Positions 43,821 to 58,587 of a stretch of 64,000 nucleotides of DNA are shown in pieces (the stretch's first letter is position 1; the number at the start of each line of letters is the position of its first letter). A program made the translations under genes and the position numbers. The notes below the pieces were generated by a model. The model made no database searches. It saw nothing but the letters and a program-made list of their open reading frames with translations, and was not told the DNA's origin. The DNA is taken from contig JANNQM010000066.1 of the NCBI GenBank assembly GCA_031400735.1, forward strand, positions 8,867 through 72,866, in the 5' to 3' direction. The DNA comes from Gallionellaceae bacterium. Lineage in GTDB: Bacteria > Pseudomonadota > Gammaproteobacteria > Burkholderiales > Gallionellaceae.

Positions 43821-44029
43821 TGCGGTGGCTGGCACTCAAATTGATAAGGGCGTACCAGATACTGTTTAGCCCGTTGATGGTGCCCGCTTGCCGGTTTACC
43901 CCAACCTGTTCCCACTATGCGCGTGAGGTGATCACCAAACATGGTGTGTGGCGCGGATCTTGGTTAACGATTAAGCGATTGTTGCGTTGCCATCCGTGGC
44001 ATCCGGGCGGTTACGACCCCGCGCCTTAG
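43817..44029 (+). CDS. yidD: Membrane protein insertion efficiency factor YidD
   Basis: [23 protein letters not shown]...[12 protein letters not shown] is canonical YidD. Confidence 0.9.
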
Positions 44030-44077
44030 TACTCTGCACCGTAGTACCGGGCGCCAAATTTATCAGGTTATGTCGAT

Positions 44078-45754
44078 ATGGATTTTCAACGCGTTTTTCT
44101 GTTTCTGATTTTTTCTTTTTCCAGCTTTTTATTGTGGGAAGCCTGGCAGCGCTCGCAGCTTCCGCCACCACCGCCTGCCGCCCAATCAACCCCACAGGCT
44201 GTTGCCCAGCCCGGCGTGCCCATTCCAACAACATCGGGCCCGACAACCTCGGCCAGCAGCCCCGGCGCAAGCAGTGTCGCCCAGACCCCTGCTCTGCCGG
44301 TGGGCAGCCAACTGAAGTCCGACCAGAAAATAACCGTTACAACTGATTTCCTGCAGGCCGAAATTAATACGGTTGGCGGGGATTTGCGCCACCTGGAGTT
44401 GCTGCGCCAATACGACAGGCTGGATAGAGCCAAGCCACTGGTGTTGTTGCAAGAGCAAGGCGCACATACCTATGTTGCCCAGACCGGGTTGCTGGGCACG
44501 GGCTTGCCCACCCACCATGCGCTGTTTACTGCGTCGGCCAGCCAATATACATTGGCGGAAGGAGTGGAGTCACTTGAAGTGCGGCTGACTTCGGTCGCAG
44601 CGGACAATGCTAAAGTAACTAAAATCTACGTCTTTCATCGCAGCAGTTATTTGATAGAGGTCAGTTATCAGATAGAAAATACCAGCGCCAGTGCGCTTAC
44701 GCCTTCGGCCTATTTCCAGTTGGTAAGGGATAAAACACCGCCCGCAGGCGATACGATGTTTGTGCCTACCTATACCGGCCCGGCTGTTTATACCGAGCAG
44801 GACAAGTTTCAGAAGGTAAGCTTTGCTGATATAGAGAAAGGCAAGGCTAAACATACTGCTACCGCCGATAACGGCTGGGCCGGCATGCTGCAACATTACT
44901 TTGTGTCGGCCTGGTTGCCCCAGGAAACTACGCAACGCGAGTTTTATACCAAGCAGCTGGAAAACGGCCTGTATTCGGTCGGCGTCGTTATGCCGATAGC
45001 GGCGATCGCGCCGGGGCAAGCCAGCAAAATAACCGTGCCGTTATATGCCGGTCCGGCCCAGGCTTCGCTGGACAAAATTGCACCGGGGTTGGGATTGACC
45101 GTCGATTATGGCTGGCTGACCATTATTGCTACCCCGATTTTCTGGTTGCTGTCGTGGTTACATGGTTGGGTGGGTAACTGGGGTGTGGCCATCATCTTGC
45201 TGACGGTGCTGATCAAGCTGGCCTTTTTCCCGCTGTCAGCGGCCAGCTACCGTTCGATGGGAAAAATGCGCGTCGTCGCGCCCAAGCTGGAAAAGATCAA
45301 GCAGCAATACGGCGATGACCGCGAGCGCCTGCATAAGGCCATGATGGAGCTGTACAAAACCGAAAAAATCAATCCACTGGGCGGGTGTTTGCCGGTGCTG
45401 ATCCAGATACCGGTATTTATTGCGCTGTACTGGGCCATCCTGGCCAGTGTGGAATTACGTTACGCACCGTTCTTTGGCTGGATTACCGATTTGTCGGCCA
45501 CCGACCCGTATTATGTGTTGCCGGTGATCATGGGCATCAGCATGTATATACAGAGCAAGCTTAATCCGACCCCTCCCGACCCGCTGCAAGCCAAGATGAT
45601 GCAAATCATGCCGATTGCCTTCAGTGTCGTGTTCTTCTTCTTCCCTGCCGGGCTGGTGCTGTATTCCATAGTCAACAATATATTGTCGATAGCGCAGCAA
45701 TGGTATATCACACGAGGTCTGGAAGCAGAGTCCAAGGGTGTCAAGAACAGATAG
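44078..45754 (+). CDS. yidC: Membrane protein insertase YidC
   Basis: 558 aa. Large periplasmic P1 domain plus the conserved C-terminal 5-TM core (GCLPVLIQIPVFIALY). Confidence 0.95.
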   Translation: MDFQRVFLFLIFSFSSFLLWEAWQRSQLPPPPPAAQSTPQAVAQPGVPIPTTSGPTTSASSPGASSVAQTPALPVGSQLKSDQKITVTTDFLQAEINTVGGDLRHLELLRQYDRLDRAKPLVLLQEQGAHTYVAQTGLLGTGLPTHHALFTASASQYTLAEGVESLEVRLTSVAADNAKVTKIYVFHRSSYLIEVSYQIENTSASALTPSAYFQLVRDKTPPAGDTMFVPTYTGPAVYTEQDKFQKVSFADIEKGKAKHTATADNGWAGMLQHYFVSAWLPQETTQREFYTKQLENGLYSVGVVMPIAAIAPGQASKITVPLYAGPAQASLDKIAPGLGLTVDYGWLTIIATPIFWLLSWLHGWVGNWGVAIILLTVLIKLAFFPLSAASYRSMGKMRVVAPKLEKIKQQYGDDRERLHKAMMELYKTEKINPLGGCLPVLIQIPVFIALYWAILASVELRYAPFFGWITDLSATDPYYVLPVIMGISMYIQSKLNPTPPDPLQAKMMQIMPIAFSVVFFFFPAGLVLYSIVNNILSIAQQWYITRGLEAESKGVKNR

Positions 45755-47075
45755 CATTGCCGCGATCGCGACCGCCTCCGGCAAAGGCGGCATCGGCGTG
45801 GTCAGGGTATCCGGATCCAATCTGGGCGAATTGGCCAAGGCTGTTCTGGGCCAGACGCCCCTCCCCCGGCAAGCCACTTATTCTGAATTCCTTGATGCCC
45901 AAGGCCTGGCCATAGACCAGGGTGTCGCGCTTTTTTTCCCCGCCCCCCATTCTTATACCGGCGAAGACGTGGTCGAGCTGCAAGGTCACGGCGGCACCGC
46001 GATTTTGCAGCTGGTTCTGCAACGCTGTCTGGAGTTGGGCGCGCGCCTGGCTCAGCCCGGTGAATTCACACAGCGCGCCTTCCTGAACAACAAACTGGAT
46101 TTGGCCCAGGCCGAAAGTGTGGCCGACCTGATAGGCGCTACCTCCAGCCAGGCCGCGCGCAGCGCGATGCGCTCGCTGCAAGGTGAATTCTCGCAGGCAA
46201 TACGCGGACTGGTCAGCGGGCTGATCCAGTTGCGTATGCTGGTCGAAGCGATGCTGGATTTCCCCGAAGAAGAAATTGCTGCGCCGGATGCCACACGCCG
46301 CGACCAGCAGCTGACCCAGCTGCAGCACGAGCTGGGCAAAATCCTTAACCTGGCGCAACAAGGCAGCCTGTTACGTGAAGGTGCGCATATCGTGCTGGCC
46401 GGCCAGCCCAACGTCGGCAAATCCAGCCTGCTGAACCGCCTGAGCGGCGAAGACATCGCGCTGGTCAGCGAAATTCCCGGCACCACCCGCGATGCGATAC
46501 GCCAGGCCATACAGATAGCGGGGGTGCCGCTGCACATCATAGACACCGCCGGCCTGCGCGAGGCGGGTGATGTGGTCGAGCAGATGGGCATTGCGCGTAC
46601 CCATGATGCGCTGCAAAAGGCCGACGCGATGCTGATATTGCTGGACGCTAGCCGCGGCATCAGCGCAGCCGACCAGGCCATTATTGCCCAGCTTCCCCCG
46701 GCCATTCCGCGCCTGTATGTTCACAACAAGATTGATCTCGTGGGTTCGCCCGCGCGCATCGAGCAGCGCGGCGAGGAGCGCCATGTTTACCTGTCGGCAA
46801 AAACCGGCGACGGCCTGGATTTGCTGCGCGACCAGCTGTTGGCACTGATCGGCTGGCACCAGGAGGCGGGCGTATTTATCGCACGCGAACGCCATGTGCG
46901 CGCGCTGCTGCAGGCGCGCGACCACCTGCAGCGCGCGGCAGGCGTGGTGCGCCAGCCCGAGCTTTTTGCCGAAGAATTGCGCCTGGCCCAGCAGGTGCTG
47001 GGCACGATCACCGGCGAATTCAGCGCGGATGACTTGCTGGGCGAAATCTTCAGCAATTTCTGTATCGGCAAGTAG
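45738..47075 (+). CDS. mnmE: tRNA modification GTPase MnmE
   Basis: DSIAAIATASGKGGIGVVRVSG, G-domain GQPNVGKSSL, C-terminal CIGK. The GTG start overlaps the yidC 3' end. Confidence 0.95.
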   Translation: MSRTDSIAAIATASGKGGIGVVRVSGSNLGELAKAVLGQTPLPRQATYSEFLDAQGLAIDQGVALFFPAPHSYTGEDVVELQGHGGTAILQLVLQRCLELGARLAQPGEFTQRAFLNNKLDLAQAESVADLIGATSSQAARSAMRSLQGEFSQAIRGLVSGLIQLRMLVEAMLDFPEEEIAAPDATRRDQQLTQLQHELGKILNLAQQGSLLREGAHIVLAGQPNVGKSSLLNRLSGEDIALVSEIPGTTRDAIRQAIQIAGVPLHIIDTAGLREAGDVVEQMGIARTHDALQKADAMLILLDASRGISAADQAIIAQLPPAIPRLYVHNKIDLVGSPARIEQRGEERHVYLSAKTGDGLDLLRDQLLALIGWHQEAGVFIARERHVRALLQARDHLQRAAGVVRQPELFAEELRLAQQVLGTITGEFSADDLLGEIFSNFCIGK

Positions 47076-47087
47076 CTAGCCAGCGAT

Positions 47088-47103
47088 TGTTTCACGTGAA
47101 ACA
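47088..47103. other. parS centromere-like site (perfect 16-bp palindrome)
   Basis: TGTTTCACGTGAAACA matches the consensus parS exactly. Begins 13 nt after the mnmE stop. Confidence 0.9.
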
Positions 47104-47182
47104 ATGACCAGGGTATTCGAGGGGCGCCATTTTTGATGTATCATGCGCGCCCTTGAGACAGCAACACAAATCGCCCAAGCCA

Positions 47183-49093
47183 ATGGAATTCCCGAAAATA
47201 TTTGACGTTATCGTGGTCGGCGGCGGCCATGCTGGCACCGAAGCCGCGCTGGCCAGCGCGCGCAGCGGGTGCAGCACATTGCTGCTGACGCATAACATCG
47301 ACACGCTGGGCATGATGTCGTGCAACCCTTCCATAGGTGGCATAGGCAAGGGACATCTGGTTAAGGAAATAGATGCGCTGGGCGGGGCGATGGCCGCCGC
47401 GACTGACCAAGCGGGCATCCAGTTCCGCATGCTCAATTCCTCCAAAGGCCCGGCGGTGCGCGCCACCCGCGCCCAGGCCGACCGCGCGTTGTATAAACAA
47501 GCCATACGCAGCCGACTGGAAAGCCAGCCTAATCTGTGGTTATTTCAACAGGCGGTAGACGATTTGCTGCTCGAGGGTGACCGGGTCAGCGGAGTGGCAA
47601 CCCAGCTCGGATTGCGCTTTGCGGCGAAAACTGTGGTGCTGACCACTGGCACCTTCCTGTCCGGGCTGATTCATATCGGACAAACCCATTACCAGGCCGG
47701 GCGAGCCGGTGATCCGCCTGCGGTCAGCCTGGCGCACCGTCTGCGCGAGCTGAATTTGCCGGTGGGACGGCTAAAAACCGGCACCCCCCCGCGCATTGAC
47801 GGGCGCACCATTGATTATTCGGTGATGACCGAACAACCCGGCGATACACCGGTGCCAGTATTTTCCTTTATCGGACGGGCTGAGCAGCATCCGCAGCAAC
47901 TGCCATGCTGGATTACCCATACCAATCAACGCACGCACGATATTATTCGTGGCGGCCTAGACCGCTCGCCGCTGTTTACCGGCGTGATCGAAGGGGTGGG
48001 GCCGCGCTATTGTCCGTCGATAGAAGACAAGATTACGCGTTTTGCCGACAAGGATGCGCACCAGATTTTTCTGGAGCCGGAAGGGCTGGCCACACATGAA
48101 GTCTATCCCAACGGTATTTCCACCAGCTTGCCGTTCGATGTGCAGCTGGAATTGGTGCGCTCGATAAAGGGCCTGGCAAACGCCCACATTACCCGCCCCG
48201 GCTATGCGATTGAATACGACTATTTCGATCCGCGCGGGCTGAAGCACTCGCTGGAAACCAAAGCCATCAACGGCCTGTTTTTTGCCGGGCAAATCAACGG
48301 CACCACCGGCTATGAAGAGGCGGCAGCACAAGGTTTGCTGGCCGGCATCAATGCTGCGCTGTATGCCAGCGAACAGCCAAGCTGGTGTCCGCGCCGCGAT
48401 GAGGCTTACTTGGGGGTGCTGGTGGATGACTTGATTACGCGCGGTGTGTCCGAGCCATACCGGATGTTTACCAGTCGCGCCGAATACCGCTTGCAGTTGC
48501 GCGAAGACAATGCCGATCTGCGGCTAACAGAAATCGGCCGCCGTCTGGGCGTGGTGGATGATGTGCGCTGGCAGGCGTTCGAGCACAAGCGCGATGCAAT
48601 CGCGACCGAACAAGAGCGCCTTAAATCTGTCTGGGTCAGCCCAAAAAATCTGGCGCAGCAAGACGCAGAACGGGTGCTGGGGAAAAAGTTGGAACACGAA
48701 TATACGCTGCACGAATTGCTGCGCCGACCCGACGTCAGCTATAGCCAGCTGATGACCTTGCCCGGCGCGGGCGTCGCACTAACCGACCAGAAGATTGCCG
48801 AGCAGGTAGAAATACAGGCTAAATATCATGGCTATATTGAGCGCCAGCGTGATGAAATCGCACGCAATGAACACAATGAAACCATGACGTTACCTGCGGT
48901 AATGGATTACCGCACAGTGCGCGGCTTGTCGATTGAGGTGCAGCAAAAGTTGAACCAGCACATGCCAGAAACCGTGGGCCAGGCGGCGCGCATATCGGGC
49001 ATCACGCCAGCAGCGATCTCTCTGCTGCTGGTGCATTTGAAGCGCGGTTTTAAGGGCCCTGCTGAAAATTCGGATATTGAAAGTGCAGCGTAA
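47183..49093 (+). CDS. mnmG: tRNA uridine 5-carboxymethylaminomethyl modification enzyme MnmG (GidA)
   Basis: [19 protein letters not shown] motif. About 636 aa from the ATG at 47183. Confidence 0.95.
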
Positions 49094-49113
49094 CGCGTGA
49101 GCCCCAAAAAATC

Positions 49114-49737
49114 GTGAGTCTGGCAGAATCACTAGCACAAGGTATCGCGCAACTGGAGCTGGATGTAGCTGCTGAAACTCAGCAAAAATTGCTGGACTAT
49201 GTAGAACTGCTGCACAAGTGGAACCAGACCTACAACCTGACTGCAATCCGCCAGCCGGATCAGATGGTAAGCAATCACTTGCTGGATAGCCTAGCTGTGG
49301 CACCGCACTTGTGGCCGGGGCAGTGGCTGGATGTGGGAAGCGGAGCCGGTCTGCCGGGCTTGGTATTAGCGCTGCTGCGGCCGCAATGGACGTTCACATT
49401 GCTGGACAGTAATAGCAAGAAAACCGGTTTTATGCAGCAGGCTGTCATTGAATTAGGCTTGAAAAATGTGCATGTGTGTTGCGCGCGCGTGGAGCAGTGG
49501 CAGCCGGGCGAAAAATTTGATGGGATTATTTCTCGCGCCTTTGCCGAGACAGCCGAATTCGTCACGCAAACACGCCAACTGCTGGCCGTGAACGGTGGCT
49601 GGGCGGCAATGAAAGGCGCGCCGGAGCAAGAGCTGCAGCGGCTACCGGCCGATATTAAAGTGCAGCAAGTAATACCGTTGCAGGTGCCGGGGTTGGATGC
49701 GGCGCGCTGTCTGGTGATTTTGAAAATGAAAGCTTAA
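49114..49737 (+). CDS. rsmG: 16S rRNA (guanine527-N7)-methyltransferase RsmG (GidB)
   Basis: WNQTYNLTAIR...DVGSGAGLPGL. Position after mnmG. Confidence 0.9.
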   Translation: MSLAESLAQGIAQLELDVAAETQQKLLDYVELLHKWNQTYNLTAIRQPDQMVSNHLLDSLAVAPHLWPGQWLDVGSGAGLPGLVLALLRPQWTFTLLDSNSKKTGFMQQAVIELGLKNVHVCCARVEQWQPGEKFDGIISRAFAETAEFVTQTRQLLAVNGGWAAMKGAPEQELQRLPADIKVQQVIPLQVPGLDAARCLVILKMKA

Positions 49738-49744
49738 ATAATAA

Positions 49745-50521
49745 ATGGTTAAAATTTTAGCGGTAACCAATCAAAAAGGCGGGGTAGGCAAAACCACGAC
49801 CACGATTAATCTGGCCGCCAGCCTGGCCAAGGCAAAACAGCGCGTGCTGCTAATAGACTTGGACCCACAAGGCAACGCCACGATGGGCAGTGGCATAGAC
49901 AAACGCGATTTACAGGCCACGGTTTATCACGTGTTGCTGGGCAGCAAATCACTGCAAGAGGTTCGCTTGCGCGCCGAGATTGGCGGCTATGACGTATTGC
50001 CGGCCAACCGCGATCTGGCGGGCGCCGAAATTGAGCTGGTGGATATGGATAACCGTGAAACCCGGCTAAAAGAGGCGCTGCAACCGGTGCTGGGCGAATA
50101 TGATTATGTGTTGATCGACTGCCCACCCGCGCTTAATCTGCTGACGCTGAATGGTTTGTGTGCTGCGCGCGCAGTGATGATCCCGATGCAGTGCGAATAT
50201 TTTGCTTTGGAAGGATTGAGCGACCTGGTTAACACGATACGCAAAGTTCGCGCAAATTTAAATCCCGACCTGGAAATCGAAGGCCTGCTGCGCACGATGT
50301 TCGACCCGCGCAACAGCCTGGCGCAACAGGTATCCGACCAGCTTAAACAACACTTCGGCGACAAAGTTTATCGCACGATAATTCCACGCAATGTGCGGCT
50401 GGCCGAAGCGCCCAGCTATGGCAAGCCGGTGCTGTATCACGACCATCTATCCAAAGGCACGCAAGCCTATCTGGCTCTGGCCGACGAAATGCTCGGCTCG
50501 CCACAACCCGTGCCAGTTTAA
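49745..50521 (+). CDS. parA: Chromosome partitioning ATPase ParA (Soj)
   Basis: Deviant Walker A NQKGGVGKTTT. 258 aa. Confidence 0.93.
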   Translation: MVKILAVTNQKGGVGKTTTTINLAASLAKAKQRVLLIDLDPQGNATMGSGIDKRDLQATVYHVLLGSKSLQEVRLRAEIGGYDVLPANRDLAGAEIELVDMDNRETRLKEALQPVLGEYDYVLIDCPPALNLLTLNGLCAARAVMIPMQCEYFALEGLSDLVNTIRKVRANLNPDLEIEGLLRTMFDPRNSLAQQVSDQLKQHFGDKVYRTIIPRNVRLAEAPSYGKPVLYHDHLSKGTQAYLALADEMLGSPQPVPV

Positions 50522-50570
50522 TTCGAAAGTTTAATTCCCCCGCGCAAAAATAAGTTAGGAAAGTACGACA

Positions 50571-51413
50571 ATGGCAAAACCGAACAAAGGATTGGGACGC
50601 GGGCTGGATGCCTTGTTGTCCGGCAACGTCAAAGAGCAGGACGATGTATTGCGCGACGTTAAAGTCAGCCAGCTCAGGCCGGGCAAATATCAGCCGCGCA
50701 GCCGTATGGATGAAGCATCGCTAAATGAATTGGCGGCGTCAATCAAGGCGCAAGGTGTAATGCAGCCCATATTGGCGCGCGCATTGAACGATGGCAATCT
50801 GGAAATTATCGCCGGGGAACGGCGCTGGCGCGCAGCGCAGATGGCCGGCTTGACCCAGGTGCCGGTACTGGTGCGCAAAGTGGCAGACAATGCCGCACTG
50901 GCCATGGCGCTGATTGAAAATATTCAGCGCGAAGACCTTAGTTCGCTGGAAGAAGCCTACGGCATCCAGCGCCTGATCGATGAATTCAAGATGACCCACC
51001 AGACCGCCGCCGATGCGGTGGGCCGCTCGCGCAGTGCCGCCAGCAATCTGCTGCGCTTGCTCAAACTGCCGCAACCGGTGCAAGCAATGCTGATGAATGA
51101 CCAGCTCGACATGGGCCACGCGCGCGCGCTGTTGGCGCTGGGCGGCGCGCAGCAAATAACCGTGGCCAATAAAATTGCCGCACAAAAACTATCGGTACGC
51201 GAAGCAGAAAAATTAATCCAGCACCTGCTGAACCCGGAAGCCAAACCGAAAAAAGCCAAACCCAACCGCGACATTGTGCATTTGCAGGAAGAGCTGGCAC
51301 AACGCATCGGCACCCAGGTGCAGATCAAACCGGGCAAGAAGGGTGCAGGCAAACTGATTATTGATTACACCAGCCATGATCATCTGGATGAGCTGATTCA
51401 ACGTTTGAAATAA
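50571..51413 (+). CDS. parB: Chromosome partitioning protein ParB (Spo0J)
   Basis: GLGRGLDALL, ParB box IIAGERRWRAA, and an HTH. Confidence 0.93.
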   Translation: MAKPNKGLGRGLDALLSGNVKEQDDVLRDVKVSQLRPGKYQPRSRMDEASLNELAASIKAQGVMQPILARALNDGNLEIIAGERRWRAAQMAGLTQVPVLVRKVADNAALAMALIENIQREDLSSLEEAYGIQRLIDEFKMTHQTAADAVGRSRSAASNLLRLLKLPQPVQAMLMNDQLDMGHARALLALGGAQQITVANKIAAQKLSVREAEKLIQHLLNPEAKPKKAKPNRDIVHLQEELAQRIGTQVQIKPGKKGAGKLIIDYTSHDHLDELIQRLK

Positions 51414-51458: not shown

Positions 51459-51636
51459 ATGAACAGCAAGGAGTTCAAGCGCTGGCTGAACGCAACAAGG
51501 GGCAACCTTTCAAGCAGGCAGAGGTTCGCATCTTAAAGTGTACTTGAACGGCAAACAGTCTGTTCTACCCATGCACAACACTGACCTTAAGACGGGCACG
51601 GTCGAAGGCATCAAGAAACAACTTGGATTGAAATAA
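51459..51636 (+). pseudogene. hicA: HicA-family toxin gene with a +1 frameshift
   Basis: MNSKEFKRWLNA in frame 1 stops at 51534. QGATFQAGRGSHLKVYLNGKQSVLPMHNTDLKTGTVEGIKKQLGLK continues in the +1 frame from 51496. Total length is 178 nt (3n+1). Confidence 0.75.
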
Positions 51637-51646
51637 GGAGCGCCCA

Positions 51647-52069
51647 ATGTTTATCTACCCTGTCACCCTCACCGCAGACAAAAAAAACGGCGGATTCGTT
51701 GTTACTTTCACCGACATCCCCGAAGCCATCACCCAAGGCGAAACCAAAGATGAAGCCTTGGCTGCTGCGAAAGATGCGCTGGAATCGGCGCTGGATTTCT
51801 ACTTTGAAGACAAGCGTACCGTGTCCGCACCATCCAAACCCAAGCGCGGCCAGCACCTTATCGAACTTCCGGCCAGCTTGTCAGCCAAGGTGCTGTTGCT
51901 CAACGAAATGATCGCGCAGAATGTGCGCCCCGCCGAGCTTGCGCGCCGCCTCCATACCACTCCGCAAGAGGTCAACCGATTAACCAATGTGCGGCATACC
52001 ACGCGCATAGACGGCATCGCCGCAGCGCTACAAGCTCTGGGCAAGCATCTGGATATGCGCGTGGTATGA
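51647..52069 (+). CDS. hicB: HicB-family antitoxin with C-terminal HTH
   Basis: MFIYPVTLTADKKNGGFVVTFTDIPEAITQGETKDEAL is a HicB N-terminal fold. XRE-like HTH in the C-terminus. GGAG RBS. Confidence 0.85.
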   Translation: MFIYPVTLTADKKNGGFVVTFTDIPEAITQGETKDEALAAAKDALESALDFYFEDKRTVSAPSKPKRGQHLIELPASLSAKVLLLNEMIAQNVRPAELARRLHTTPQEVNRLTNVRHTTRIDGIAAALQALGKHLDMRVV

Positions 52070-52131: not shown

Positions 52132-52515
52132 ATGTTTACAAAAACAACACACCGCATCCTGATAGGCTGGTTGATCCTGGCGCTTTTGCTGGCGCAGGGG
52201 ATGCGGGTATGCATACATGCTTATGGTGCACCGCACATTGCCGACCATGCGCATGAAGTGTCCGCCACGCATCTCGAAAGCGCGTTTAGTATGCTCGACG
52301 ACCACGGCGAGGCGGTGTCGGATACGCACATATCGCTGATCGGCATGCTCAAACATCTGTCAGCCCAGCCGCTGATTGCTGTAGTGCTGCTGCTAACGCT
52401 GATTCTGGTTCTGTTGCGGACCGGCGTTTTGAGGCTGACACAACCACGCGACCCAGTATTTCGTCCGCCCCATGGGCATTACTTTAGCCCACCTCTGCGC
52501 GCTCCGCCGCGCTAA
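52132..52515 (+). CDS. His-rich two-TM small protein (CzcI/DUF2946-like by composition only)
   Basis: N-terminal TM segment, then CIHAYGAPHIADHAHEVSATH...DDHGE..DTH, a second TM, and tail RPPHGHYFSPPLRAPP. First gene of the metal cassette. Confidence 0.5.
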   Translation: MFTKTTHRILIGWLILALLLAQGMRVCIHAYGAPHIADHAHEVSATHLESAFSMLDDHGEAVSDTHISLIGMLKHLSAQPLIAVVLLLTLILVLLRTGVLRLTQPRDPVFRPPHGHYFSPPLRAPPR

Positions 52516-52609
52516 CTACTCCCCGATGTATTGAATCACCCGCGCTTGAAAGTGTGGGTGGCCGTTCGACATTAACGTCGTGCGTATCTGCGCGGCAAGG
52601 AGTAGAAAA

Positions 52610-53899
52610 ATGAAATTCAATAGTGCATTACCCACCGCAGCTGGGTGGGCGTTAGTCATGTTCCTGCTCGGCGCACCGCTGGCCTTGGCCCAGGAAAAAC
52701 CGGTGTGGACGCTTGTGGCCAGCGTGCAACGCGCGCTTGATGTGGCGCCCGAGCTGCGCGCTGCCGAGGCGGAAATTGCCGCGCGCGCGGGAGAATTATC
52801 ACAAGCGGGTGCGTGGCCTAACCCGACCCTGGAATTGCGCGCGGATGAAAAGCTGACGATAGAAAGCGGACGCGGCCGGTTTGGACTTAATCAGCTGGCC
52901 ATCACGCAGCCGATCCCGTTGCGCCGGTTGGCCCCTCAGCGCCGTGCCGCAGAGCTGACTCTGCAAGGCGTGCAGGCGGAACAGCGCTACCAAAATCTGC
53001 AAAGTGAGACCCGCACCGCGCATGCCTACCATGCATTACAACGTGCGACGGAGCGGCAGCAGCGGGCACAGGAACGCCTGGCCTTCGCTGAAAAAATGCA
53101 GCGTGGCAACAAGCAAAAAAAAGATGACCCGCTGGTGCGCTATCTTTCACCATTGGAACGCGCGCGACTCGACGTACTGCGCGAGACTGCGTATCAAGAG
53201 GTAGCCGAAGCCGAGGGAAAATGGAGCGAGGCCGCCGCGCAACTGCGCGCGTTGTTGGCACTAGCGCCCGGCGAGCAGCTTGAAACCTTGCCGTTAGCAC
53301 CGGCCGCTACCCCGCCAACACTCTCAGCACTGCTCGACCGCCTGACCTCGCACCCCGCACTCCAAGCGGCGCAGCATAACCGCGAGGCCAATCAAGCAGG
53401 CGTCGACGTGGCGCGTGCACAACGGCTTGCGGATCCAACCGTAGGCATTTTTCATGAACAGGATGAGCTGGCCGGAGAGCGCCGCATTTACTCGGGGATC
53501 ATGCTTAGCATGCAACTACCGCTGTGGAATAAAAATAATGGCTCAGTCGCGCGTGCGGTTGCCGTTACCAACAAGGCTGACGCTATGCTGGCAACTCAAC
53601 ACCGCGACCTGGAAAGCCGCTTGCGCCAGAATCATCTGCATCTGGGACATCTGATCGAGCAAGCAGAGCATTACCGAACCCGCTTGCTGGTGCCAGCAAA
53701 AAAAGTCCTCGACCTGACGCGCAAAGGGTTTGTCACGGGCGAGCAAAGCGGGCTGGCGCTAGTAGATGCCAGTAACACTTATTTTGAGGCGCAGGCGCAT
53801 TACCTTGATCTGCTGCACGACGCGTGGTTTGAGGCTGCAGAATTGCGGCTAGCTTCCGGCGTTTCGATAATTATCTCTTCGATGGAGACCCAACCATGA
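52610..53899 (+). CDS. TolC-family outer-membrane efflux factor (CzcC/CusC-like)
   Basis: Signal peptide ending in ALAQE and two OEP repeats. ATG at 52610 with an AAGGAG RBS. The stop overlaps the RND start (ATGA). Confidence 0.88.
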   Translation: MKFNSALPTAAGWALVMFLLGAPLALAQEKPVWTLVASVQRALDVAPELRAAEAEIAARAGELSQAGAWPNPTLELRADEKLTIESGRGRFGLNQLAITQPIPLRRLAPQRRAAELTLQGVQAEQRYQNLQSETRTAHAYHALQRATERQQRAQERLAFAEKMQRGNKQKKDDPLVRYLSPLERARLDVLRETAYQEVAEAEGKWSEAAAQLRALLALAPGEQLETLPLAPAATPPTLSALLDRLTSHPALQAAQHNREANQAGVDVARAQRLADPTVGIFHEQDELAGERRIYSGIMLSMQLPLWNKNNGSVARAVAVTNKADAMLATQHRDLESRLRQNHLHLGHLIEQAEHYRTRLLVPAKKVLDLTRKGFVTGEQSGLALVDASNTYFEAQAHYLDLLHDAWFEAAELRLASGVSIIISSMETQP

Positions 53900-56800
53900 T
53901 CGCCGCACTGATACGTTTTTCGCTAATCCAGCGGCTGATGATTTTGCTGCTGGCCGTTGCCGTCATACTAGCTGGACTGTGGGCGTTTCGCGCGCTGCCG
54001 ATCGATGCCTTCCCTGACATTTCCAGCCCGCAAGTCATGGTGGTGGTGAAAGCGCCCGGCATGGCGCCGGAGGAAGTCGAGGCGCGCATCAGCTTTCCGA
54101 TAGAAATGGAAATGCAGGGCCTGCCGCGCCAGAAAATTTTGCGCTCCACCACCAAATATGCGCTGGCCAGCATCATCATAGATTTTGAAGATGGCACCGA
54201 TATTTATTGGGCGCGCGCGCAGGTGGCCGAACGCCTGAATCAGATTTGGGGTGATTTGCCGCAAGGCGTGTCCGGCGGATTGGCGCCGATCACCACCCCG
54301 CTGGGCGAAATTTATATGTACCGCATCGTCGGCGAAGGCTATAGCAATCAGGAGTTGCGCGCCTTGCAGGATTGGACCATACGCCCGCGTCTGCGCACCG
54401 TGGATGGCGCGGCGGATGTCAATTCTCTGGGCGGCGAAGTGCGCGCCTTCGAGGTAATCCCCGACCCGGCACAGCTGGCGGCGCAAGGTTTGGATTTACA
54501 TGACATCGAACAAGCGCTGCAACAAAACAACCGCAATGCAGGCGGCGACCGCATCAACCGCGAGCAGGAAATGTTGCTGGTGCGCACGGTTGGGCAATTG
54601 CGCAACGCCGATGACATCGCCAATATCACCATCACGACGCGCGATGGTGCAGCGATACGTATCAAGGATGTGGCGCGCGTGCGCATAGGCTCGCTCACCC
54701 GTTACGGCGCGGTGACGGCGGACGGCAAAGGCGAAGCGGTGACCGGCTTGGTGTTGTTGCGCAAGGGCGCGAACAGCCGCAGCACGGTAGAAGGCGTCAA
54801 GCGCGAACTGGCGGCACTTGCCCCGGCCCTGCCCAAAGGCGTGACGATTATTCCGTTTTATGACCGCACCGAGTTGGTTAACGAAGCTGTGAGTACAGTG
54901 CAGGTGGCGCTGGGCGAGGCGGTGGTGCTGGTGCTGCTGGTGTTGATCGTGTTGCTCGGCAACCTGCGCGCCGCACTGACGGTGGCTTTGATTCTGCCGC
55001 TGTCGGTGCTGGCTACGTTTATTTTGATGCAGGTGTTTGGTGTGTCGGCCAACTTGATGTCGCTCGGCGGATTGGCTATCGCCATAGGCATTTTGGTGGA
55101 TGCCGCCGTGGTGGTGGTGGAAAACGTCCACACGCAACTGAGCCACGCGCCGCCAGGTGTGAGCCGCTTGCACCTGGTGTATCGCGCCACGCTGGAAGTC
55201 GCCACTCCTGTAATTTCTGGCGTGCTGATTATTATCATGGTGTTCTTGCCGCTGTTCAGCCTGACCGGGTTGGAAGGAAAGATGTTCACGCCTCTTGCCA
55301 TCACCATTTCGTTTGCCTTGCTTAGTTCGCTGGTGCTTTCGCTGACGGCGATTCCGGTGCTGGCCAGTTTTCTGATGCGCGGTGGTGTCCATCAGGACGA
55401 CTGGATACTGACGCGCATCAAACGCATCTACTTGCCGCTGATGAATTGGGCGCTGCGTCATCGTGGCGTTGCGGTGGGCGTTGCATTCATCGCACTGGTG
55501 GGCGCGCTGGCGCTGATTCCATTCATCGGGCGCGAGTTCATGCCGGTGATGGACGAAGGAACGACGGTGATTATTGTGGAGAAATCCTCCAACGTGTCGC
55601 TGGAACATTCGCTGGCTTTGGATGAACCCATACACAAAGCCTGGATGGAACTGCCGCAGGTCACCGGCGTGGTGTCGCGCACCGGCGCGGACGAGCTGCG
55701 TCTGGATCCGATGGGGCTTTATCAGACCGATAATTTTGTGCTGACCAAGCCGCGCAGCGAGTGGGGCATCAGCGTTGAGGAATTCAACCAGCAGCTGCGC
55801 GACAAGCTGGAGCGCTTCAAGGATTTGGAATTCGACATCGCCTTCACCCAGCCGATAGACATGCGCACATCGGAAATGCTGACCGGCGTGCGCGCCGCAA
55901 TGGCGATCAAACTGTTCGGCGACGACCTCGCGCTGCTGGAAGAGAAATCCAAACAGATTGAAGATATTCTCGGTCGCATTCCCGGTGCGGTGGATATTTT
56001 TCGTGGACGGCTGTCGGGGCAAAATTATTTGCGCCTGACTATTCGTCAGCCAGACATCGCCCGATACGGCATCCGCACCGAAGACATCAACCAGATGATA
56101 GAAACTGCGGTCGGCGGTAAAGTGGTGAGCGAGATCATCGAAGGCAATCGCCGCAGCCCGGTGTTGCTGCGCTATCCGGAAAAAGCGCGCGCCTCGCCAA
56201 AAGCACTCGGGCAACTGCTGATCGAAACGCCGGGCGGAGCCAAAGTGCCGCTGGCGCTGCTGGCCGACATCGAAGAGGTGGATGGCCCGGTGCAGATCAC
56301 GCGCGAATCGGCCAAGCGCCAGGTGGTGGTGCAGTCCAACGTCGAGAACCGCGACGTGGTCGGCTTTGTGGACGAAGTGCGCGCCACGATAGAGCGCGAG
56401 GTAGAGTTGCCGCAAGGCTACCACATCACCTACGGCGGCCAGTTTGAAAACGAGCAACGCGCTGCGGCACGTCTGGCGCTGGTCGTGCCAGTGTCCATCG
56501 CGTTAATCTTTGTCATGCTGTTCACCACCTTCCGCTCGTTGCGCCAAGCCGGGTTAATCATCCTCAACATCCCGTTCGCGATGATAGGCGGCGTGGTGAG
56601 TTTGTATTTTTCTGGGCTGTATTTATCAGTCCCCGCCTCGGTCGGTTTCATCACGCTGTTCGGCGTGGCGGTGCTGAATGGCGTGGTGATGGTGACCTAT
56701 TTCAACCAGTTGCGTGCAGCCGGACGCAGCGTACTGCAAGCGGTACAGGAAGGCGCAGAACGCAGGCTGCGTCCGGTGCTGTTGACCGCGCTCATTGCGA

Positions 56801-56991
56801 GTCTTGGATTAGTACCGATGCTACTTGCCACCGGCCCCGGTTCCGAATTGCAGCGCCCCCTTGCGGTAGTCGTGATCGGCGGCTTGTTCACCTCAACGCT
56901 GCTGACACTGGTGCTGCTGCCCACGCTCTACGCCTGGCTCGAAGGTCGCACTGAACAAAAATCACAAACAGGACAGGAGAGCCTCACATGA
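53896..56991 (+). CDS. CusA/CzcA-family heavy-metal-efflux RND transporter
   Basis: 1031 aa with 12 TM helices. N-terminus IRFSLIQR...ALPIDAFPDISSPQV. TM4 reads AIGILVDAAVVVVENVH. Confidence 0.93.
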   Translation: MIAALIRFSLIQRLMILLLAVAVILAGLWAFRALPIDAFPDISSPQVMVVVKAPGMAPEEVEARISFPIEMEMQGLPRQKILRSTTKYALASIIIDFEDGTDIYWARAQVAERLNQIWGDLPQGVSGGLAPITTPLGEIYMYRIVGEGYSNQELRALQDWTIRPRLRTVDGAADVNSLGGEVRAFEVIPDPAQLAAQGLDLHDIEQALQQNNRNAGGDRINREQEMLLVRTVGQLRNADDIANITITTRDGAAIRIKDVARVRIGSLTRYGAVTADGKGEAVTGLVLLRKGANSRSTVEGVKRELAALAPALPKGVTIIPFYDRTELVNEAVSTVQVALGEAVVLVLLVLIVLLGNLRAALTVALILPLSVLATFILMQVFGVSANLMSLGGLAIAIGILVDAAVVVVENVHTQLSHAPPGVSRLHLVYRATLEVATPVISGVLIIIMVFLPLFSLTGLEGKMFTPLAITISFALLSSLVLSLTAIPVLASFLMRGGVHQDDWILTRIKRIYLPLMNWALRHRGVAVGVAFIALVGALALIPFIGREFMPVMDEGTTVIIVEKSSNVSLEHSLALDEPIHKAWMELPQVTGVVSRTGADELRLDPMGLYQTDNFVLTKPRSEWGISVEEFNQQLRDKLERFKDLEFDIAFTQPIDMRTSEMLTGVRAAMAIKLFGDDLALLEEKSKQIEDILGRIPGAVDIFRGRLSGQNYLRLTIRQPDIARYGIRTEDINQMIETAVGGKVVSEIIEGNRRSPVLLRYPEKARASPKALGQLLIETPGGAKVPLALLADIEEVDGPVQITRESAKRQVVVQSNVENRDVVGFVDEVRATIEREVELPQGYHITYGGQFENEQRAAARLALVVPVSIALIFVMLFTTFRSLRQAGLIILNIPFAMIGGVVSLYFSGLYLSVPASVGFITLFGVAVLNGVVMVTYFNQLRAAGRSVLQAVQEGAERRLRPVLLTALIASLGLVPMLLATGPGSELQRPLAVVVIGGLFTSTLLTLVLLPTLYAWLEGRTEQKSQTGQESLT

Positions 56992-57296
56992 AAAATCTAA
57001 CACTAATCGTCCATGCCGATGTCCAGCAGGCGCTGGCCGATGCATTGCGCAGCATCAAGCAAGCGTCCGGTTTTACCTTCACGCCGGTCGAAGGCCACGG
57101 CGCGCAGGATGGCAGTGACCCGACCCTCTCCGCAACAGACAGGGTAGTCGGCTACACGCCACAGGTGCGCGTGGATATTTTGCTGGAAGACGGCGATGTG
57201 GAGGCTGTCTTGCAGAAGTTGCGCACAGCCGACTGTGGATTGGCAGGGCGTGGTATTTACTGGGTTACGCCGCTGGAACATCGGGGGCGGTTGTGA
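56988..57296 (+). CDS. P-II-like (DUF3240-type) small cytoplasmic protein
   Basis: 102 aa. beta-alpha-beta pattern with VEGHG followed by a Gly/Asp/Ser/Thr-rich loop. The ATG overlaps the RND stop (ATGA). GGAG RBS. Confidence 0.65.
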   Translation: MKNLTLIVHADVQQALADALRSIKQASGFTFTPVEGHGAQDGSDPTLSATDRVVGYTPQVRVDILLEDGDVEAVLQKLRTADCGLAGRGIYWVTPLEHRGRL

Positions 57297-57367
57297 AGTG
57301 GGAGGGAGCAATCGCGCTGTACGCACTGCGACCGATCTTTAACGTTTTTATAACCTGAGAGGTGCAC

Positions 57368-58162
57368 ATGATATCAATTACAAAATCCGCCCTGCTGATG
57401 GCATTGGCGCTGCTAGTTCCGGCGCTGGCGTTCGGCCACGGCATGTCCGAGGCGGACAAGCTGGCAATCGTGGCGGGAGGCAACCTGCGTTACCTGTCAC
57501 TGGGTGCCACGCACATGCTGTCCGGTTACGATCACCTGTTGTTCGTGTTCGGTATTGTCTTCCTCCTGAAGACGTTCCGCGAGATCGTAAAATACATCAC
57601 CGCGTTTACGCTCGGGCACAGCGTCACGCTGATCTTCGCGACGTTCAACCACATCCAGATGAATTATCTGCTGATCGACGCCGTCATCGGCCTGAGCGTG
57701 GTGTACATCGCGTTCGCGAACCTGGACGGCTTCCGCCGCTATCTGGGCATCGCGCCGCCCAACCTGCTCGCCATGATCGCGCTGTTCGGGTTGATCCACG
57801 GCTTCGGGCTGTCAACACGGCTGCAGGAACTGCCGCTCAGCGAAACCGACCTGCTGATGAACATCATTTCGTTCAATGTCGGTGTCGAGCTGGGCCAGGT
57901 GCTGGCGCTGTCGGTCATGCTGGCACTGCTCGCGGGCTGGCGTAAAACAAAATCGTTCCTGTCCTTCAGCCGTGTGTCAAACGTCGGCCTGATTTTCGCG
58001 GGCATGCTGCTGTTTCTGATGCAGATGCACGGTTACTCTCACCAAAGCAGCCCGGACGAATTTGGCTTTAGCGCCGATAATCATCTGCACGAACATATCA
58101 AGCTGGATGCCGAACGCGCCGAGGCGCTTCGTTCCGAAGCAATACACGATTCTATTGATTGA
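57368..58162 (+). CDS. HupE/UreJ-like (family 2) membrane protein
   Basis: Signal peptide then GATHMLSGYDHLLFVFG, about 6 TM helices, and a His-rich tail HGYSHQSS...DNHLHEH. ATG at 57368 with a GAGG RBS. Confidence 0.65.
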   Translation: MISITKSALLMALALLVPALAFGHGMSEADKLAIVAGGNLRYLSLGATHMLSGYDHLLFVFGIVFLLKTFREIVKYITAFTLGHSVTLIFATFNHIQMNYLLIDAVIGLSVVYIAFANLDGFRRYLGIAPPNLLAMIALFGLIHGFGLSTRLQELPLSETDLLMNIISFNVGVELGQVLALSVMLALLAGWRKTKSFLSFSRVSNVGLIFAGMLLFLMQMHGYSHQSSPDEFGFSADNHLHEHIKLDAERAEALRSEAIHDSID

Positions 58163-58184
58163 CCAACCCAAAGGAGAAGTAAAT

Positions 58185-58532
58185 ATGCGTAAGATAATTA
58201 TTGCCGTAACGTTGTGTACCCTCAGCCTGATGACCGCCCCCGCTTTTTCTGGAGCCGACCACGAGCATTCCCATGCGCAAGGGCCGATTTCAGAGGAGGT
58301 GGCCAAACAAGAGGCGACCAAACAAGTTAGCGAACTGGTGTCGAAAGGAAAAGTCGACAAGAGTTGGAGCGGGATCAAACCAGCGAAGGCTTACCAGAAG
58401 ACCTTCAAGAAGGGACCGGAATGGGTTGTGGAGTTCGCAAACAGCGCGGCATCGGATAAGGCGAAACAGACGCTCTATCTGTTCTATACCCTGGACGGTC
58501 ACTATATGGCCGCAAATTTTACCGGCAAGTAA
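58185..58532 (+). CDS. Secreted small protein with N-terminal His cluster
   Basis: Signal peptide ...APAFSG, then ADHEHSHAQGPISEE. 115 aa. AAGGAG RBS 8 nt upstream. Confidence 0.55.
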   Translation: MRKIIIAVTLCTLSLMTAPAFSGADHEHSHAQGPISEEVAKQEATKQVSELVSKGKVDKSWSGIKPAKAYQKTFKKGPEWVVEFANSAASDKAKQTLYLFYTLDGHYMAANFTGK

Positions 58533-58587
58533 GTTCTACTCTTCCCGTAGCGTCTCATGAAAAAGCCGGGCGGTTGTAATTGAATAA

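What the first reader, a model, noticed from the sequence alone, without database searches (positions are those of the whole stretch)
56988..57296. P-II-like protein translationally coupled to an RND pump
The 102-aa product reads as a beta-alpha-beta-beta-alpha-beta fold. The segments are LTLIVHA, DVQQALADALRSI, GFTFTPVEGHG, a loop AQDGSDPTLSATDRVVGY, QVRVDILLE and GDVEAVLQKLRT. This mirrors P-II proteins, which have ...VTEVKGFG followed by the T-loop. Its ATG overlaps the pump's TGA, which implies coupled synthesis. P-II-family proteins are established plug-type regulators of membrane transporters (GlnK-AmtB, SbtB-SbtA). I am not aware of a characterised P-II-like partner for an RND efflux pump, so this pairing suggests ligand-gated control of the pump from the cytoplasmic face.
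Basis: partly seen in the sequence, partly recalled or inferred. Interest (0 to 1): 0.65.

Follow-up and report, generated by a model that had tools for sequence, protein, structure and literature searches.

The report
P-II-type protein coupled to metal pump
The 102-residue gene is a real, conserved P-II signalling-protein homologue (the "PII-NG"/DUF3240 group) sitting at the tail of a heavy-metal RND efflux gene. This pairing was noted by comparative genomics in 2009 but has never been explained biochemically, so the gene is a new member of a known kind.

Summary
ORF 56988..57296 (+) encodes 102 aa, and its ATG overlaps the TGA of a CusA/CzcA-family RND gene (ATGA), with an AGGAG Shine-Dalgarno site 8 nt upstream. 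The ORF is under purifying selection (dN/dS 0.08-0.23).

It passes Pfam's thresholds for both DUF3240 and P-II. It aligns almost without gaps to solved GlnB/GlnK proteins (E 1e-9). The AlphaFold model is beta-alpha-beta-[T-loop]-beta-alpha-beta, and its best PDB matches are all P-II proteins plus the DUF3240 structure 3CE8.

Linkage to RND genes is near-absolute. An RND gene lies directly upstream in 30 of 31 genome loci and in 6 of 6 distant relatives (29-49% identity) that have upstream sequence.

The pairing is not new. Papers held here describe "PII-New Group" genes linked to heavy-metal efflux pumps (Sant'Anna 2009), and Geobacter GSU2134-czcABC is induced by cobalt. No biochemical study turned up.

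The T-loop and cleft scaffold are the most conserved parts. The canonical ATP/2-oxoglutarate lysines and the B-loop signature are lost. Docking of the trimer on the pump's cytoplasmic face, gated by a ligand, is therefore plausible but inferred.

Noticed in passing: this clade's operon (outer-membrane factor, RND, P-II) has lost the periplasmic adaptor gene.

The parts
52132..52515 (+). Small membrane protein (127 aa): two hydrophobic segments, a His-rich middle and a C-terminal FRPP motif. It is the first gene of the cluster.
   Evidence: ORF, with no Pfam or NCBIfam match. phmmer finds homologues in the same position upstream of the outer-membrane factor gene in L014, L016, L022, L029, L037, L039 and L040. 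Analogous small ORFs with FRPPR tails occur in other loci.
52580..53899 (+). Outer-membrane factor (TolC/CzcC-like). The probable true start is the ATG at 52610, after AAGGAG. Its stop overlaps the RND start by 4 nt.
   Evidence: Pfam OEP PF02321, E 5e-25; TIGR01844 TolC family; sequence read. It lies directly upstream of the RND gene in all loci that have upstream sequence.
53896..56991 (+). Heavy-metal-efflux RND inner-membrane pump (1031 aa, CusA/CzcA family).
   Evidence: ACR_tran E 1e-299. TIGR00914 CusA/CzcA scores 1058 bits against a cut-off of 701. The best solved relative is ZneA 4k0e (717 bits), followed by CusA (642 bits). The CusA Met triad is absent, and 3 of 4 ZneA proximal-site carboxylates are kept.
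56975..56979 (+). Shine-Dalgarno AGGAG for the P-II gene, lying inside the 3' end of the RND gene.
   Evidence: Sequence. A GGAG-like motif sits 7-10 nt upstream of the start in nearly all orthologous junctions.
56988..57296 (+). P-II-family protein (PII-NG / DUF3240), 102 aa. This is the finding.
57090..57161 (+). T-loop (residues 35-58: EGHGAQDGSDPTLSATDRVVGYTP). Its base (E35-G36-H37) and distal half (S48..D51.V53.G55..P58) are the most conserved parts of the family.
   Evidence: Low-pLDDT loop between strands 2 and 3. Conservation across 58 representatives from 50%-identity clusters and in alignments A1 and A2.
57362..58162 (+). HupE/UreJ-type metal permease-like membrane protein. The probable start is the ATG at 57368.
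   Evidence: Pfam HupE_UreJ_2 PF13795, E 2.9e-52. The same gene follows the P-II gene in L011, L016, L019 (second module), L034, L040 and the distant L042.
58185..58532 (+). DUF6488 secreted small protein (115 aa from the internal ATG; the listed ORF begins at 58062). It is the last gene of the conserved block.
   Evidence: Pfam DUF6488 PF20098, E 1.6e-24, with the match starting at residue 42 of the listed ORF. The 91% nucleotide-identity block shared with the Gallionellaceae locus L011 ends at 58533.

Best explanation
Shown: the gene encodes a cytoplasmic member of the P-II superfamily, with no signal peptide. It belongs to the divergent branch that Pfam calls DUF3240 and the literature calls PII-NG. 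Across phyla this branch is encoded at the 3' end of heavy-metal RND efflux operons and is translationally coupled to the pump gene.

Inferred: it forms a P-II-type homotrimer and uses its three conserved T-loops to dock on the cytoplasmic face of the trimeric RND pump, at matching 3:3 stoichiometry. There it modulates pumping, most likely restraining it, according to a small ligand bound in the inter-subunit cleft at the T-loop base. This would work like GlnK on AmtB or SbtB on SbtA.

The ligand is probably not the classical ATP/ADP/2-oxoglutarate set, because the lysines and B-loop that bind them are replaced. A cytoplasmic metal ion held by the His/Glu(/Cys)-rich cleft, or a different nucleotide, is the leading guess. 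The pay-off would be fast, post-translational protection against over-exporting an essential metal.
For: Identity:
- Pfam P-II and DUF3240 both score above threshold.
- E 1e-9 to solved GlnB with the canonical T-loop length.
- P-II fold in the model and in Foldseek matches, including the AmtB-GlnK complex 2ns1, the NrtBCD-PII complex 8wm7 and DUF3240 3ce8.

Linkage:
- An RND gene lies directly upstream on the same strand in 30 of 31 genome loci.
- The same holds in 6 of 6 distant representatives (29-49% identity) that have upstream sequence.
- The exact ATGA overlap is present in 25 of 31 loci, with a conserved Shine-Dalgarno site.
- The genes downstream of the P-II gene vary: HupE-like, lipoproteins, P-type ATPase, CDF, EamA. 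The RND gene is the only constant neighbour.

Functional surface:
- Across 58 diverse representatives the best-conserved positions are the cleft scaffold (F29, T30, E35-G36-H37) and the distal T-loop (D51, V53, G55, P58, R61). The B-loop is the most variable stretch.
- dN/dS is 0.08-0.23.

Precedent: P-II proteins plug or regulate membrane transporters (established for GlnK-AmtB and SbtB-SbtA; references). RND pumps and P-II proteins are both homotrimers (established knowledge). In Geobacter, a PII-NG-czcABC operon is induced by Co(II) (PMC7726332).
Against: - There is no direct evidence of binding to the pump. No complex prediction, expression data or experiment was available: no RNA runs hold the locus.
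- Gene adjacency and translational coupling show co-expression and stoichiometry, not physical contact.
- The canonical effector residues are changed. K58 becomes Q (R in most relatives), K90 becomes I, D88 becomes R, R38 becomes A and Y51 becomes R. The B-loop is not conserved. Ligand gating is therefore assumed, not supported.
- The P-II protein diverges much faster than its pump (29-49% against 55-64% identity in distant pairs). This is weak support at best for a tightly co-evolving interface.
- Whether T-loop spacing fits the cytoplasmic face of an RND trimer is unknown.
Confidence: 0.45

Rival explanations
1. It is a cytoplasmic metal-binding protein (a buffer, sensor or metallochaperone) in the manner proposed for CutA1. 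It would bind the pump's substrate metal at the former nucleotide cleft and either sequester it or hand it to the pump or other exporters, rather than gating the pump.
For: His and Glu are enriched at the cleft. H9 is present in 63% of family representatives, E35 in 80% and H37 in 76%, with C83 in the close subfamily. The canonical phosphate-binding lysines are lost. The neighbourhood is made of metal-resistance genes (P-type ATPase with HMA domain, CDF, HupE-like). Dulay et al. propose a metal-sensing role for PII-NG by analogy with CutA1 (PMC7726332).
Against: There is no match to the CutA1 family. H9, H37 and C83 are not invariant across the family. The strongly conserved distal T-loop is better explained as a protein-contact surface than as a metal site. 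HME-RND pumps are generally thought to take up substrate from the periplasm (established view, with some debate).
Confidence: 0.2
2. It is a P-II-type regulator whose real target is something other than the RND pump. Candidates are a transcription factor or sensor kinase of the metal regulon, or the transporter encoded downstream (here the HupE/UreJ-like permease). Under this reading, linkage to the RND gene reflects only co-expression.
For: Canonical P-II proteins have many soluble targets (established). HupE_UreJ_2 plus DUF6488 follow the P-II gene in the window, in five other close loci and in a 41%-identity relative.
Against: Most loci lack the HupE-like gene, and the downstream genes are heterogeneous. 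No regulator gene is consistently present. Only the RND gene is constant, and it is the gene that is translationally coupled.
Confidence: 0.15
3. It is an assembly or stability factor for the RND trimer: a cytoplasmic trimeric clamp with no signal-dependent switching.
For: The 1:1 translational coupling and matching three-fold symmetry fit this reading. So does the variable B-loop and the loss of effector residues. This clade's pump lacks an adaptor gene and might need other stabilisation.
Against: Relatives with a full CzcCBA set also carry the gene (L048). The cleft scaffold (GFT, EGHG, several glycines) is still conserved, as if a ligand site were retained.
Confidence: 0.1
4. It is a spurious or decaying ORF created by the GC-rich 3' flank of the pump gene.
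For: The ORF is short, and an antisense ORF of similar length (57003..57326) overlaps it.
Against: There are hundreds of homologues. Two Pfam models score above threshold. dN/dS is 0.08-0.23, and the Shine-Dalgarno site is conserved.
Confidence: 0.01

Closest known systems
PII-NG ('PII New Group', Sant'Anna et al. 2009), e.g. Geobacter sulfurreducens GSU2134 with czcABC
   Same: P-II domain (PF00543-positive). It is not GlnB, GlnK or NifI, and it is genomically linked to heavy-metal RND efflux genes (PMC11617674; PMC7726332). The biochemical function is unknown.
   Different: In Geobacter the P-II gene is the first gene of the operon, and an adaptor (CzcB) is present. Here it is the last of the core genes, overlaps the pump's stop codon, and the operon has no adaptor. 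I could not place the window protein in the published PII-NG tree, because the paper and its sequences are not held.
Pfam DUF3240 (PF11582); crystal structure 3CE8 (Sbal_0098, Shewanella baltica)
   Same: DUF3240 is the best-scoring Pfam family (51.6 bits). Close relatives are named 'DUF3240 family protein' by NCBI. The model superposes on 3CE8 (Foldseek E 6.5e-6, TM 0.75 on the target).
   Different: The window protein is closer in sequence to canonical GlnB/GlnK than to 3CE8, which phmmer did not recover even at E<=10. No function is attached to DUF3240.
GlnK-AmtB (P-II plug of the ammonium channel)
   Same: Trimeric P-II homologue encoded next to, and co-translated with, a trimeric membrane transporter. 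The T-loop has the same length. The glycine scaffold of the effector cleft is kept (G27, G35, G37, G84, G87, G89 equivalents).
   Different: The plug arginine R47 and the uridylylation site Y51 are absent (S48 and R52 here). K58, K90 and D88 are replaced and the B-loop is variable. The partner is a proton-driven exporter, not a channel. No interaction has been shown.
SbtB-SbtA (P-II-like regulator of the bicarbonate transporter)
   Same: A small P-II-fold protein encoded immediately downstream of its transporter, with a non-canonical ligand repertoire.
   Different: SbtB is only distantly P-II-like and binds adenine nucleotides and cAMP. Neither the sequence search against PDB chains nor the listed structure matches returned an SbtB chain, and no Pfam family other than P-II and DUF3240 was hit.
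CutA1 (divalent-cation tolerance protein with a P-II-like fold)
   Same: A small trimeric ferredoxin-like protein associated with metal tolerance. Metal binding is reported at the site equivalent to the P-II ATP cleft (as cited in PMC7726332).
   Different: No CutA1 Pfam match. CutA1 lacks a long T-loop and is not linked to RND genes.
AcrZ, YajC and WatS1 (small-protein modulators of RND pumps)
   Same: Post-translational partners of RND inner-membrane pumps (PMC10710835).
   Different: Those are single-helix membrane peptides that bind within the bilayer. This is a soluble 102-aa P-II-fold protein that could only reach the cytoplasmic face.

Membership tests
P-II superfamily (Pfam PF00543, GlnB-like) | Profile match above Pfam's gathering threshold | tested here: met
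   39.8 bits against a cut-off of 25, covering residues 1-98. phmmer gives E 1.1e-9 to GlnB 2eg1.
P-II superfamily (Pfam PF00543, GlnB-like) | Double beta-alpha-beta ferredoxin-like fold with a long T-loop between strands 2 and 3 | tested here: met
   AlphaFold2 secondary structure E2-9, H10-21, E26-34, loop 35-58, E59-66, H71-80, E90-95. All top Foldseek hits are P-II proteins.
P-II superfamily (Pfam PF00543, GlnB-like) | Homotrimer | not testable with these tools
   Only monomer prediction is available.
Canonical GlnB/GlnK | T-loop modification site Y51 and its signature (PROSITE PS00496, pattern recalled from memory) | tested here: not met
   Y51 aligns with R52, and the surrounding sequence is LSATDR.
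Canonical GlnB/GlnK | B-loop signature T-x3-G-[DY]-G-[KR]-[IV]-[FW] (PROSITE PS00638, recalled from memory) with K90; K58 and Q39 for ATP/Mg/2-oxoglutarate | tested here: not met
   The window has G87-R88-G89-I90-Y91-W92, and K58 is replaced by Q59; only Q39 (Q40 here) is kept. The B-loop is the most variable region of the family.
Canonical GlnB/GlnK | Linkage to glnA, nadE, amtB or nif genes | tested here: not met
   The neighbours are the outer-membrane factor, RND, HupE-like and DUF6488 genes.
PII-NG (Sant'Anna 2009) | P-II-domain protein outside GlnB/GlnK/NifI whose gene is linked to heavy-metal efflux pump genes | tested here: met
   The definition is as quoted in PMC11617674 and PMC7726332. 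Linkage is shown.
PII-NG (Sant'Anna 2009) | Placement inside the published PII-NG clade | not tested
   The original paper and its sequence set are not held, and no GSU2134 sequence was available.
DUF3240 (PF11582) | Profile match above the gathering threshold | tested here: met
   51.6 bits against a cut-off of 21, covering residues 3-101. The precomputed annotation is the same for all 120 listed homologues.
DUF3240 (PF11582) | Structural similarity to the family's solved member 3CE8 | tested here: met
   Foldseek E 6.5e-6, TM 0.67 on the query and 0.75 on the target.
CutA1 / SbtB / PstA-type P-II-like families | Profile or sequence match to those families | tested here: not met
   No Pfam family other than DUF3240 and P-II was hit at E<=0.01. 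The PDB sequence hits are all GlnB/GlnK-type.
HME-RND tripartite efflux system (CzcCBA/CusCBA type), for the operon as a whole | Genes for all three components: outer-membrane factor, periplasmic adaptor (MFP) and RND pump | tested here: not met
   The outer-membrane factor and RND genes are present and overlap by 4 nt, with no adaptor gene between or nearby. jackhmmer seeded with the adaptor of L035 finds none in 41 loci or in the six-frame translation of the 64-kb window. No HlyD-type Pfam annotation appears in L001-L010. An adaptor could still be encoded elsewhere in the genome.

The most novel reading that the evidence does not exclude
The protein is the first P-II-family regulator of an RND-superfamily transporter. 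A homotrimer would dock by its conserved T-loops onto the cytoplasmic face of the trimeric heavy-metal pump and switch it according to a non-canonical ligand, possibly the metal itself, bound in a remodelled His/Glu cleft. In this particular clade the partner pump would work with an outer-membrane factor but without any periplasmic adaptor, which would be an unprecedented architecture for an HME-RND system.
Probability: 0.3. Interest if true: 0.7.

Novelty: new member of a known kind. Interest (0 to 1): 0.4.

Why it matters
P-II proteins are among the most widespread signal processors in biology, and RND pumps are the main metal and drug exporters of Gram-negative bacteria. A direct P-II-to-RND link would add a new target class for P-II signalling. 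It would also be the first soluble, cytoplasmic, post-translational switch known for an RND pump.

The genomic association has been on record since 2009 without any biochemical follow-up. The value of this locus is that it offers a compact, strongly conserved and testable example, with a defined conserved T-loop motif to mutate. It also sits in an unusual adaptor-less operon variant that appears to spread between phyla on metal-resistance islands.

If the protein turns out to be only a metal buffer or an accessory factor, the finding is ordinary.

Tried and rejected
- Exact-sequence look-up of the window protein in public assemblies: nothing on record.
- tblastn of the protein against 72,556 plasmids: no match.
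Distant contexts came from single look-ups instead.
- RNA-seq evidence for co-transcription: no RNA run holds the locus. Only sediment, soil and groundwater DNA metagenomes do.
- Riboswitch or other RNA element around the operon (for example NiCo): no Rfam match at E<=1 in 51000-59000.
- Promoter and terminator scan: nothing above the shuffled expectation, and no terminator between the pump, P-II and HupE-like genes.
- Natural RND-P-II fusions: the two hits of about 1,070-1,080 aa in the representative search (P0189, P0211) are low-complexity repeat proteins, not pumps.
- The pump as a Cu(I)/Ag(I) exporter like CusA: rejected, because the Met triad is absent, although the TM4 motif is CusA-like.
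- The reading of DUF3240 as an antitoxin in an H. pylori paper (PMC8935386): a docking-based speculation with no bearing here.
- The original PII-NG paper could not be read.
- A phrase search for adaptor-less RND systems found nothing relevant.
- A chained RND+P-II structure prediction was not attempted.
Full report
**1. The observation**

The window has an ORF at 56988..57296 on the + strand. Its ATG (56988-56990) shares three bases with the TGA (56989-56991) that ends a 1031-residue ORF at 53896..56991. An AGGAG lies at 56975-56979, 8 nt upstream of the ATG.

The upstream ORF is a heavy-metal-efflux RND pump. Pfam ACR_tran gives E 1e-299, and NCBIfam TIGR00914 (CusA/CzcA family) scores 1058 bits against a cut-off of 701.

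The small ORF is a real gene:
- 517 homologues at E<=1e-3 in the 90%-clustered protein collection.
- 202 representative clusters at E<=1e-3 in the exhaustive search.
- dN/dS of 0.08-0.23 against nine orthologues.

The antisense ORF 57003..57326 is a shadow ORF.

**2. What the protein is**

It scores above Pfam's curated thresholds for two related families: DUF3240 (PF11582, 51.6 bits, cut-off 21) and P-II (PF00543, 39.8 bits, cut-off 25).

Against the sequences of solved structures, the best matches are all GlnB/GlnK proteins. The top hit is Aquifex GlnB 2eg1 at E 1.1e-9, with one single-residue gap before strand 2, one after helix 2, and none in between. The T-loop therefore has exactly the canonical length.

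An AlphaFold2 model built on 30 homologues (mean pLDDT 71) gives strand 2-9, helix 10-21, strand 26-34, a low-confidence loop 35-58, strand 59-66, helix 71-80 and strand 90-95.

The 50 best Foldseek matches in the PDB are P-II proteins at probability 1.00. They include the AmtB-GlnK complex 2ns1 and the NrtBCD-PII complex 8wm7. The DUF3240 structural-genomics entry 3CE8 ranks 13th (E 6.5e-6).

NCBI names close relatives 'DUF3240 family protein', and JGI names them 'nitrogen regulatory protein P-II 1'.

**3. How it differs from canonical P-II**

I mapped the window sequence onto GlnB numbering with the alignment.

The glycine scaffold of the effector cleft is kept, together with several other cleft and T-loop positions:

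| GlnB position | Window residue |
|---|---|
| G27 | G28 |
| T29 | T30 |
| G35 | G36 |
| G37 | G38 |
| Q39 | Q40 |
| G84 | G84 |
| G87 | G87 |
| G89 | G89 |
| P57 | P58 |
| E62 | D63 |

The residues that bind ATP phosphates, Mg and 2-oxoglutarate, or that are modified or used as a plug, are replaced:

| GlnB position | Window residue |
|---|---|
| R38 | A39 |
| K58 | Q59 (R in most relatives) |
| D88 | R88 |
| K90 | I90 |
| Y51 | R52 |
| R47 | S48 |

Across 58 full-length representatives taken from 50%-identity clusters, the most conserved positions are M1, K2, L4, L20, F29, T30, E35-G36-H37, D51, V53, G55, P58, R61, Y91, W92, G100 and L102. The B-loop (residues 80-88) is the most variable stretch. 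In GlnB/GlnK the B-loop is a family signature, so this is the reverse pattern.

In the close subfamily H9, H37 and C83 are nearly invariant. By the topology of the fold, H9, E35, H37, residue 59 and C83 should all lie around the T-loop base and inter-subunit cleft. That placement is inferred, not measured.

The protein has no signal peptide, so it is cytoplasmic (read directly from the sequence).

**4. Linkage to the pump**

A scan of one genome per species returned 31 loci, in Gallionellaceae, Nitrotoga, Sideroxydans, Muproteobacteria, Acidiferrobacterales, Nitrospirota and a Xanthobacteraceae MAG.
- In 30 of them an RND gene lies directly upstream on the same strand. The exception, L041, is a degraded copy.
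- In 25 of them the RND ORF ends exactly 3 nt after the P-II start (ATGA or GTGA). A GGAG-like Shine-Dalgarno site sits 7-10 nt upstream.

Ten further contexts of one 71%-identical protein show the same arrangement. Several of these lie next to Tn7-like or integrase genes.

Six distant representatives (29-49% identity) that have upstream sequence all follow an RND gene whose product is 55-64% identical to the window's pump.

By contrast, the genes downstream of the P-II gene vary. They include HupE_UreJ_2 plus DUF6488 (as in the window), a lipoprotein plus a 277-residue secreted protein, a 200-residue lipoprotein, a P-type ATPase, a CDF transporter and an EamA transporter.

The RND gene is therefore the only constant partner.

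**5. What is already known**

The pairing is not new.
[quoted passage not shown] 2009 (PMC11617674).
- Dulay et al. 2020 describe GSU2134 of Geobacter sulfurreducens as a PII-NG protein. It is the first gene of a czcABC operon that is induced by Co(II) and Fur-regulated. They speculate on metal sensing by analogy with CutA1 (PMC7726332).

I found no biochemical or structural study of a P-II/RND interaction. A 2023 review of post-translational transporter control lists only AcrZ, YajC and WatS1 for RND pumps (PMC10710835).

The association itself, however, is a rediscovery. The original 2009 paper is not held, so I could not place this protein in its tree.

**6. Most likely mechanism**

Shown: P-II homology and fold; cytoplasmic location; near-obligate, translationally coupled linkage to an HME-RND gene; strong purifying selection focused on the T-loop and the cleft scaffold.

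Inferred: the protein is a trimer that docks through its T-loops on the cytoplasmic face of the trimeric pump. It alters pumping in response to a ligand bound at the remodelled cleft. The analogy is with GlnK-AmtB and SbtB-SbtA.

The lost lysines and the variable B-loop make the classical ATP/2-oxoglutarate read-out unlikely. A metal ion, or another small molecule at the His/Glu-rich cleft, is my leading guess.

I put about 0.45 on direct, regulatory binding to the pump. The rivals are:
- a CutA-like metal-binding, buffering or chaperone role (0.2);
- a P-II regulator with a different target, such as the downstream HupE-like permease or a transcription system (0.15);
- a constitutive assembly clamp (0.1).

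Weaknesses:
- There is no interaction evidence of any kind and no expression data.
- The P-II protein evolves much faster than the pump.
- Whether its T-loop geometry fits an RND trimer is unknown.

**7. The operon around it**

The gene order is:
- a small His-rich two-helix membrane protein (52132..52515, no family match);
- an outer-membrane factor (52580..53899, probable start 52610);
- the RND pump;
- the P-II protein;
- a HupE_UreJ_2 protein (57362..58162);
- a DUF6488 protein (58185..58532).

No terminator-like site separates the pump, P-II and HupE-like genes, and no Rfam element is present.

The pump is closer to the Zn(II) pump ZneA (717 bits) than to CusA (642 bits). It lacks the CusA methionine triad: M573, M623 and M672 align with I560, Q610 and E660. 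It keeps three of the four ZneA proximal-site carboxylates as I recall them: D602, E610 and D658 align with D604, D612 and E660, while D654 aligns with M656. A divalent metal is therefore the more likely substrate.

A block of 91% nucleotide identity to a Gallionellaceae MAG runs from inside the pump gene to exactly the stop of the DUF6488 gene (window 55180..58533). This marks the 3' edge of a shared cassette.

**8. An unexpected feature: no adaptor gene**

The outer-membrane factor gene overlaps the RND gene by 4 nt, leaving no room for a periplasmic adaptor (membrane fusion protein).

The same holds in every close locus that has upstream sequence, except L035. There a short HlyD_D23 adaptor sits between the two genes, and its pump is the most divergent of the set (69% identity).

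A 45%-identity relative of the P-II protein (L048) sits in a complete OEP-CzcB-RND-P-II operon, with 4-nt overlaps throughout. The adaptor-containing order therefore looks ancestral, and the adaptor looks lost in the window's clade, where the pumps are at least 71% identical to each other.

jackhmmer seeded with the L035 adaptor finds no other adaptor in 41 loci (up to 10 kb either side, where the contig allows) or in the six-frame translation of the whole 64-kb window. No HlyD-type Pfam hit is recorded in L001-L010.

An adaptor encoded elsewhere in the genome cannot be excluded. A single-seed search can also miss very divergent adaptors.

**9. Verdict**

The gene is a new member of a known but functionally uncharacterised kind (PII-NG/DUF3240). 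Interest is moderate. The open question of what a P-II protein does at an RND pump is real and directly testable. The adaptor-less operon variant adds a second, possibly more original, question.

Noticed in passing
window 52580..56991 (also L001-L040): The outer-membrane factor and HME-RND genes overlap by 4 nt, with no periplasmic adaptor (MFP) gene in the operon, in the 64-kb window or in the flanks (up to 10 kb) of about 25 independent related loci. More distant relatives (L048, L035) do have the adaptor between the two genes, so it appears to have been lost in this clade.
   Followed up: partly
window 51459..51637: The hicA toxin gene upstream of hicB (51647..52069) is frameshifted. It reads MNSKEFKRWLNATRGNLSSRQRFAS* in one frame, and the rest of a normal HicA (...GRGSHLKVYLNGKQSVLPMHNTDLKTGTVEGIKKQLGLK*) continues in the next frame. 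This is either a pseudogene or an assembly error.
   Followed up: partly
window 52132..52515: The first gene of the cluster encodes a 127-aa protein with two hydrophobic segments, a His-rich middle and a C-terminal FRPP(H/R) motif, with no Pfam or NCBIfam match. Homologues or analogues with the same tail sit upstream of the outer-membrane factor gene in many related loci. None is called upstream of the outer-membrane factor gene in the adaptor-containing L048.
   Followed up: partly
window 57362..58532; L011, L016, L019, L034, L040, L042: A HupE_UreJ_2 permease-like gene and a DUF6488 gene follow the P-II gene as a conserved pair, even next to a P-II relative of only 41% identity. A HupE/UreJ-type protein (usually a Ni/Co importer) sitting behind an efflux pump is unexplained.
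   Followed up: partly
window 55180..58533 vs L011 3..3385: A block of 91% nucleotide identity to a Gallionellaceae MAG ends exactly at the stop of the DUF6488 gene. Related modules sit next to Tn7-like and integrase genes (L001-L006, L009) and occur in both Pseudomonadota and Nitrospirota at about 70% protein identity. This suggests a mobile metal-resistance cassette.
   Followed up: partly
L019 5620..10309 and 12116..16820: One Nitrospiraceae contig carries two tandem modules of outer-membrane factor, RND and P-II. Their P-II proteins are 73% and 54% identical to the window's.
   Followed up: no
window 38129..51413: The efflux cluster lies immediately after the replication-origin gene set on the chromosome: gyrB, dnaN, dnaA, rnpA, yidC, mnmE, mnmG, rsmG, parA, parB. 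These genes were identified from ORF sizes and N-terminal sequences only.
   Followed up: no
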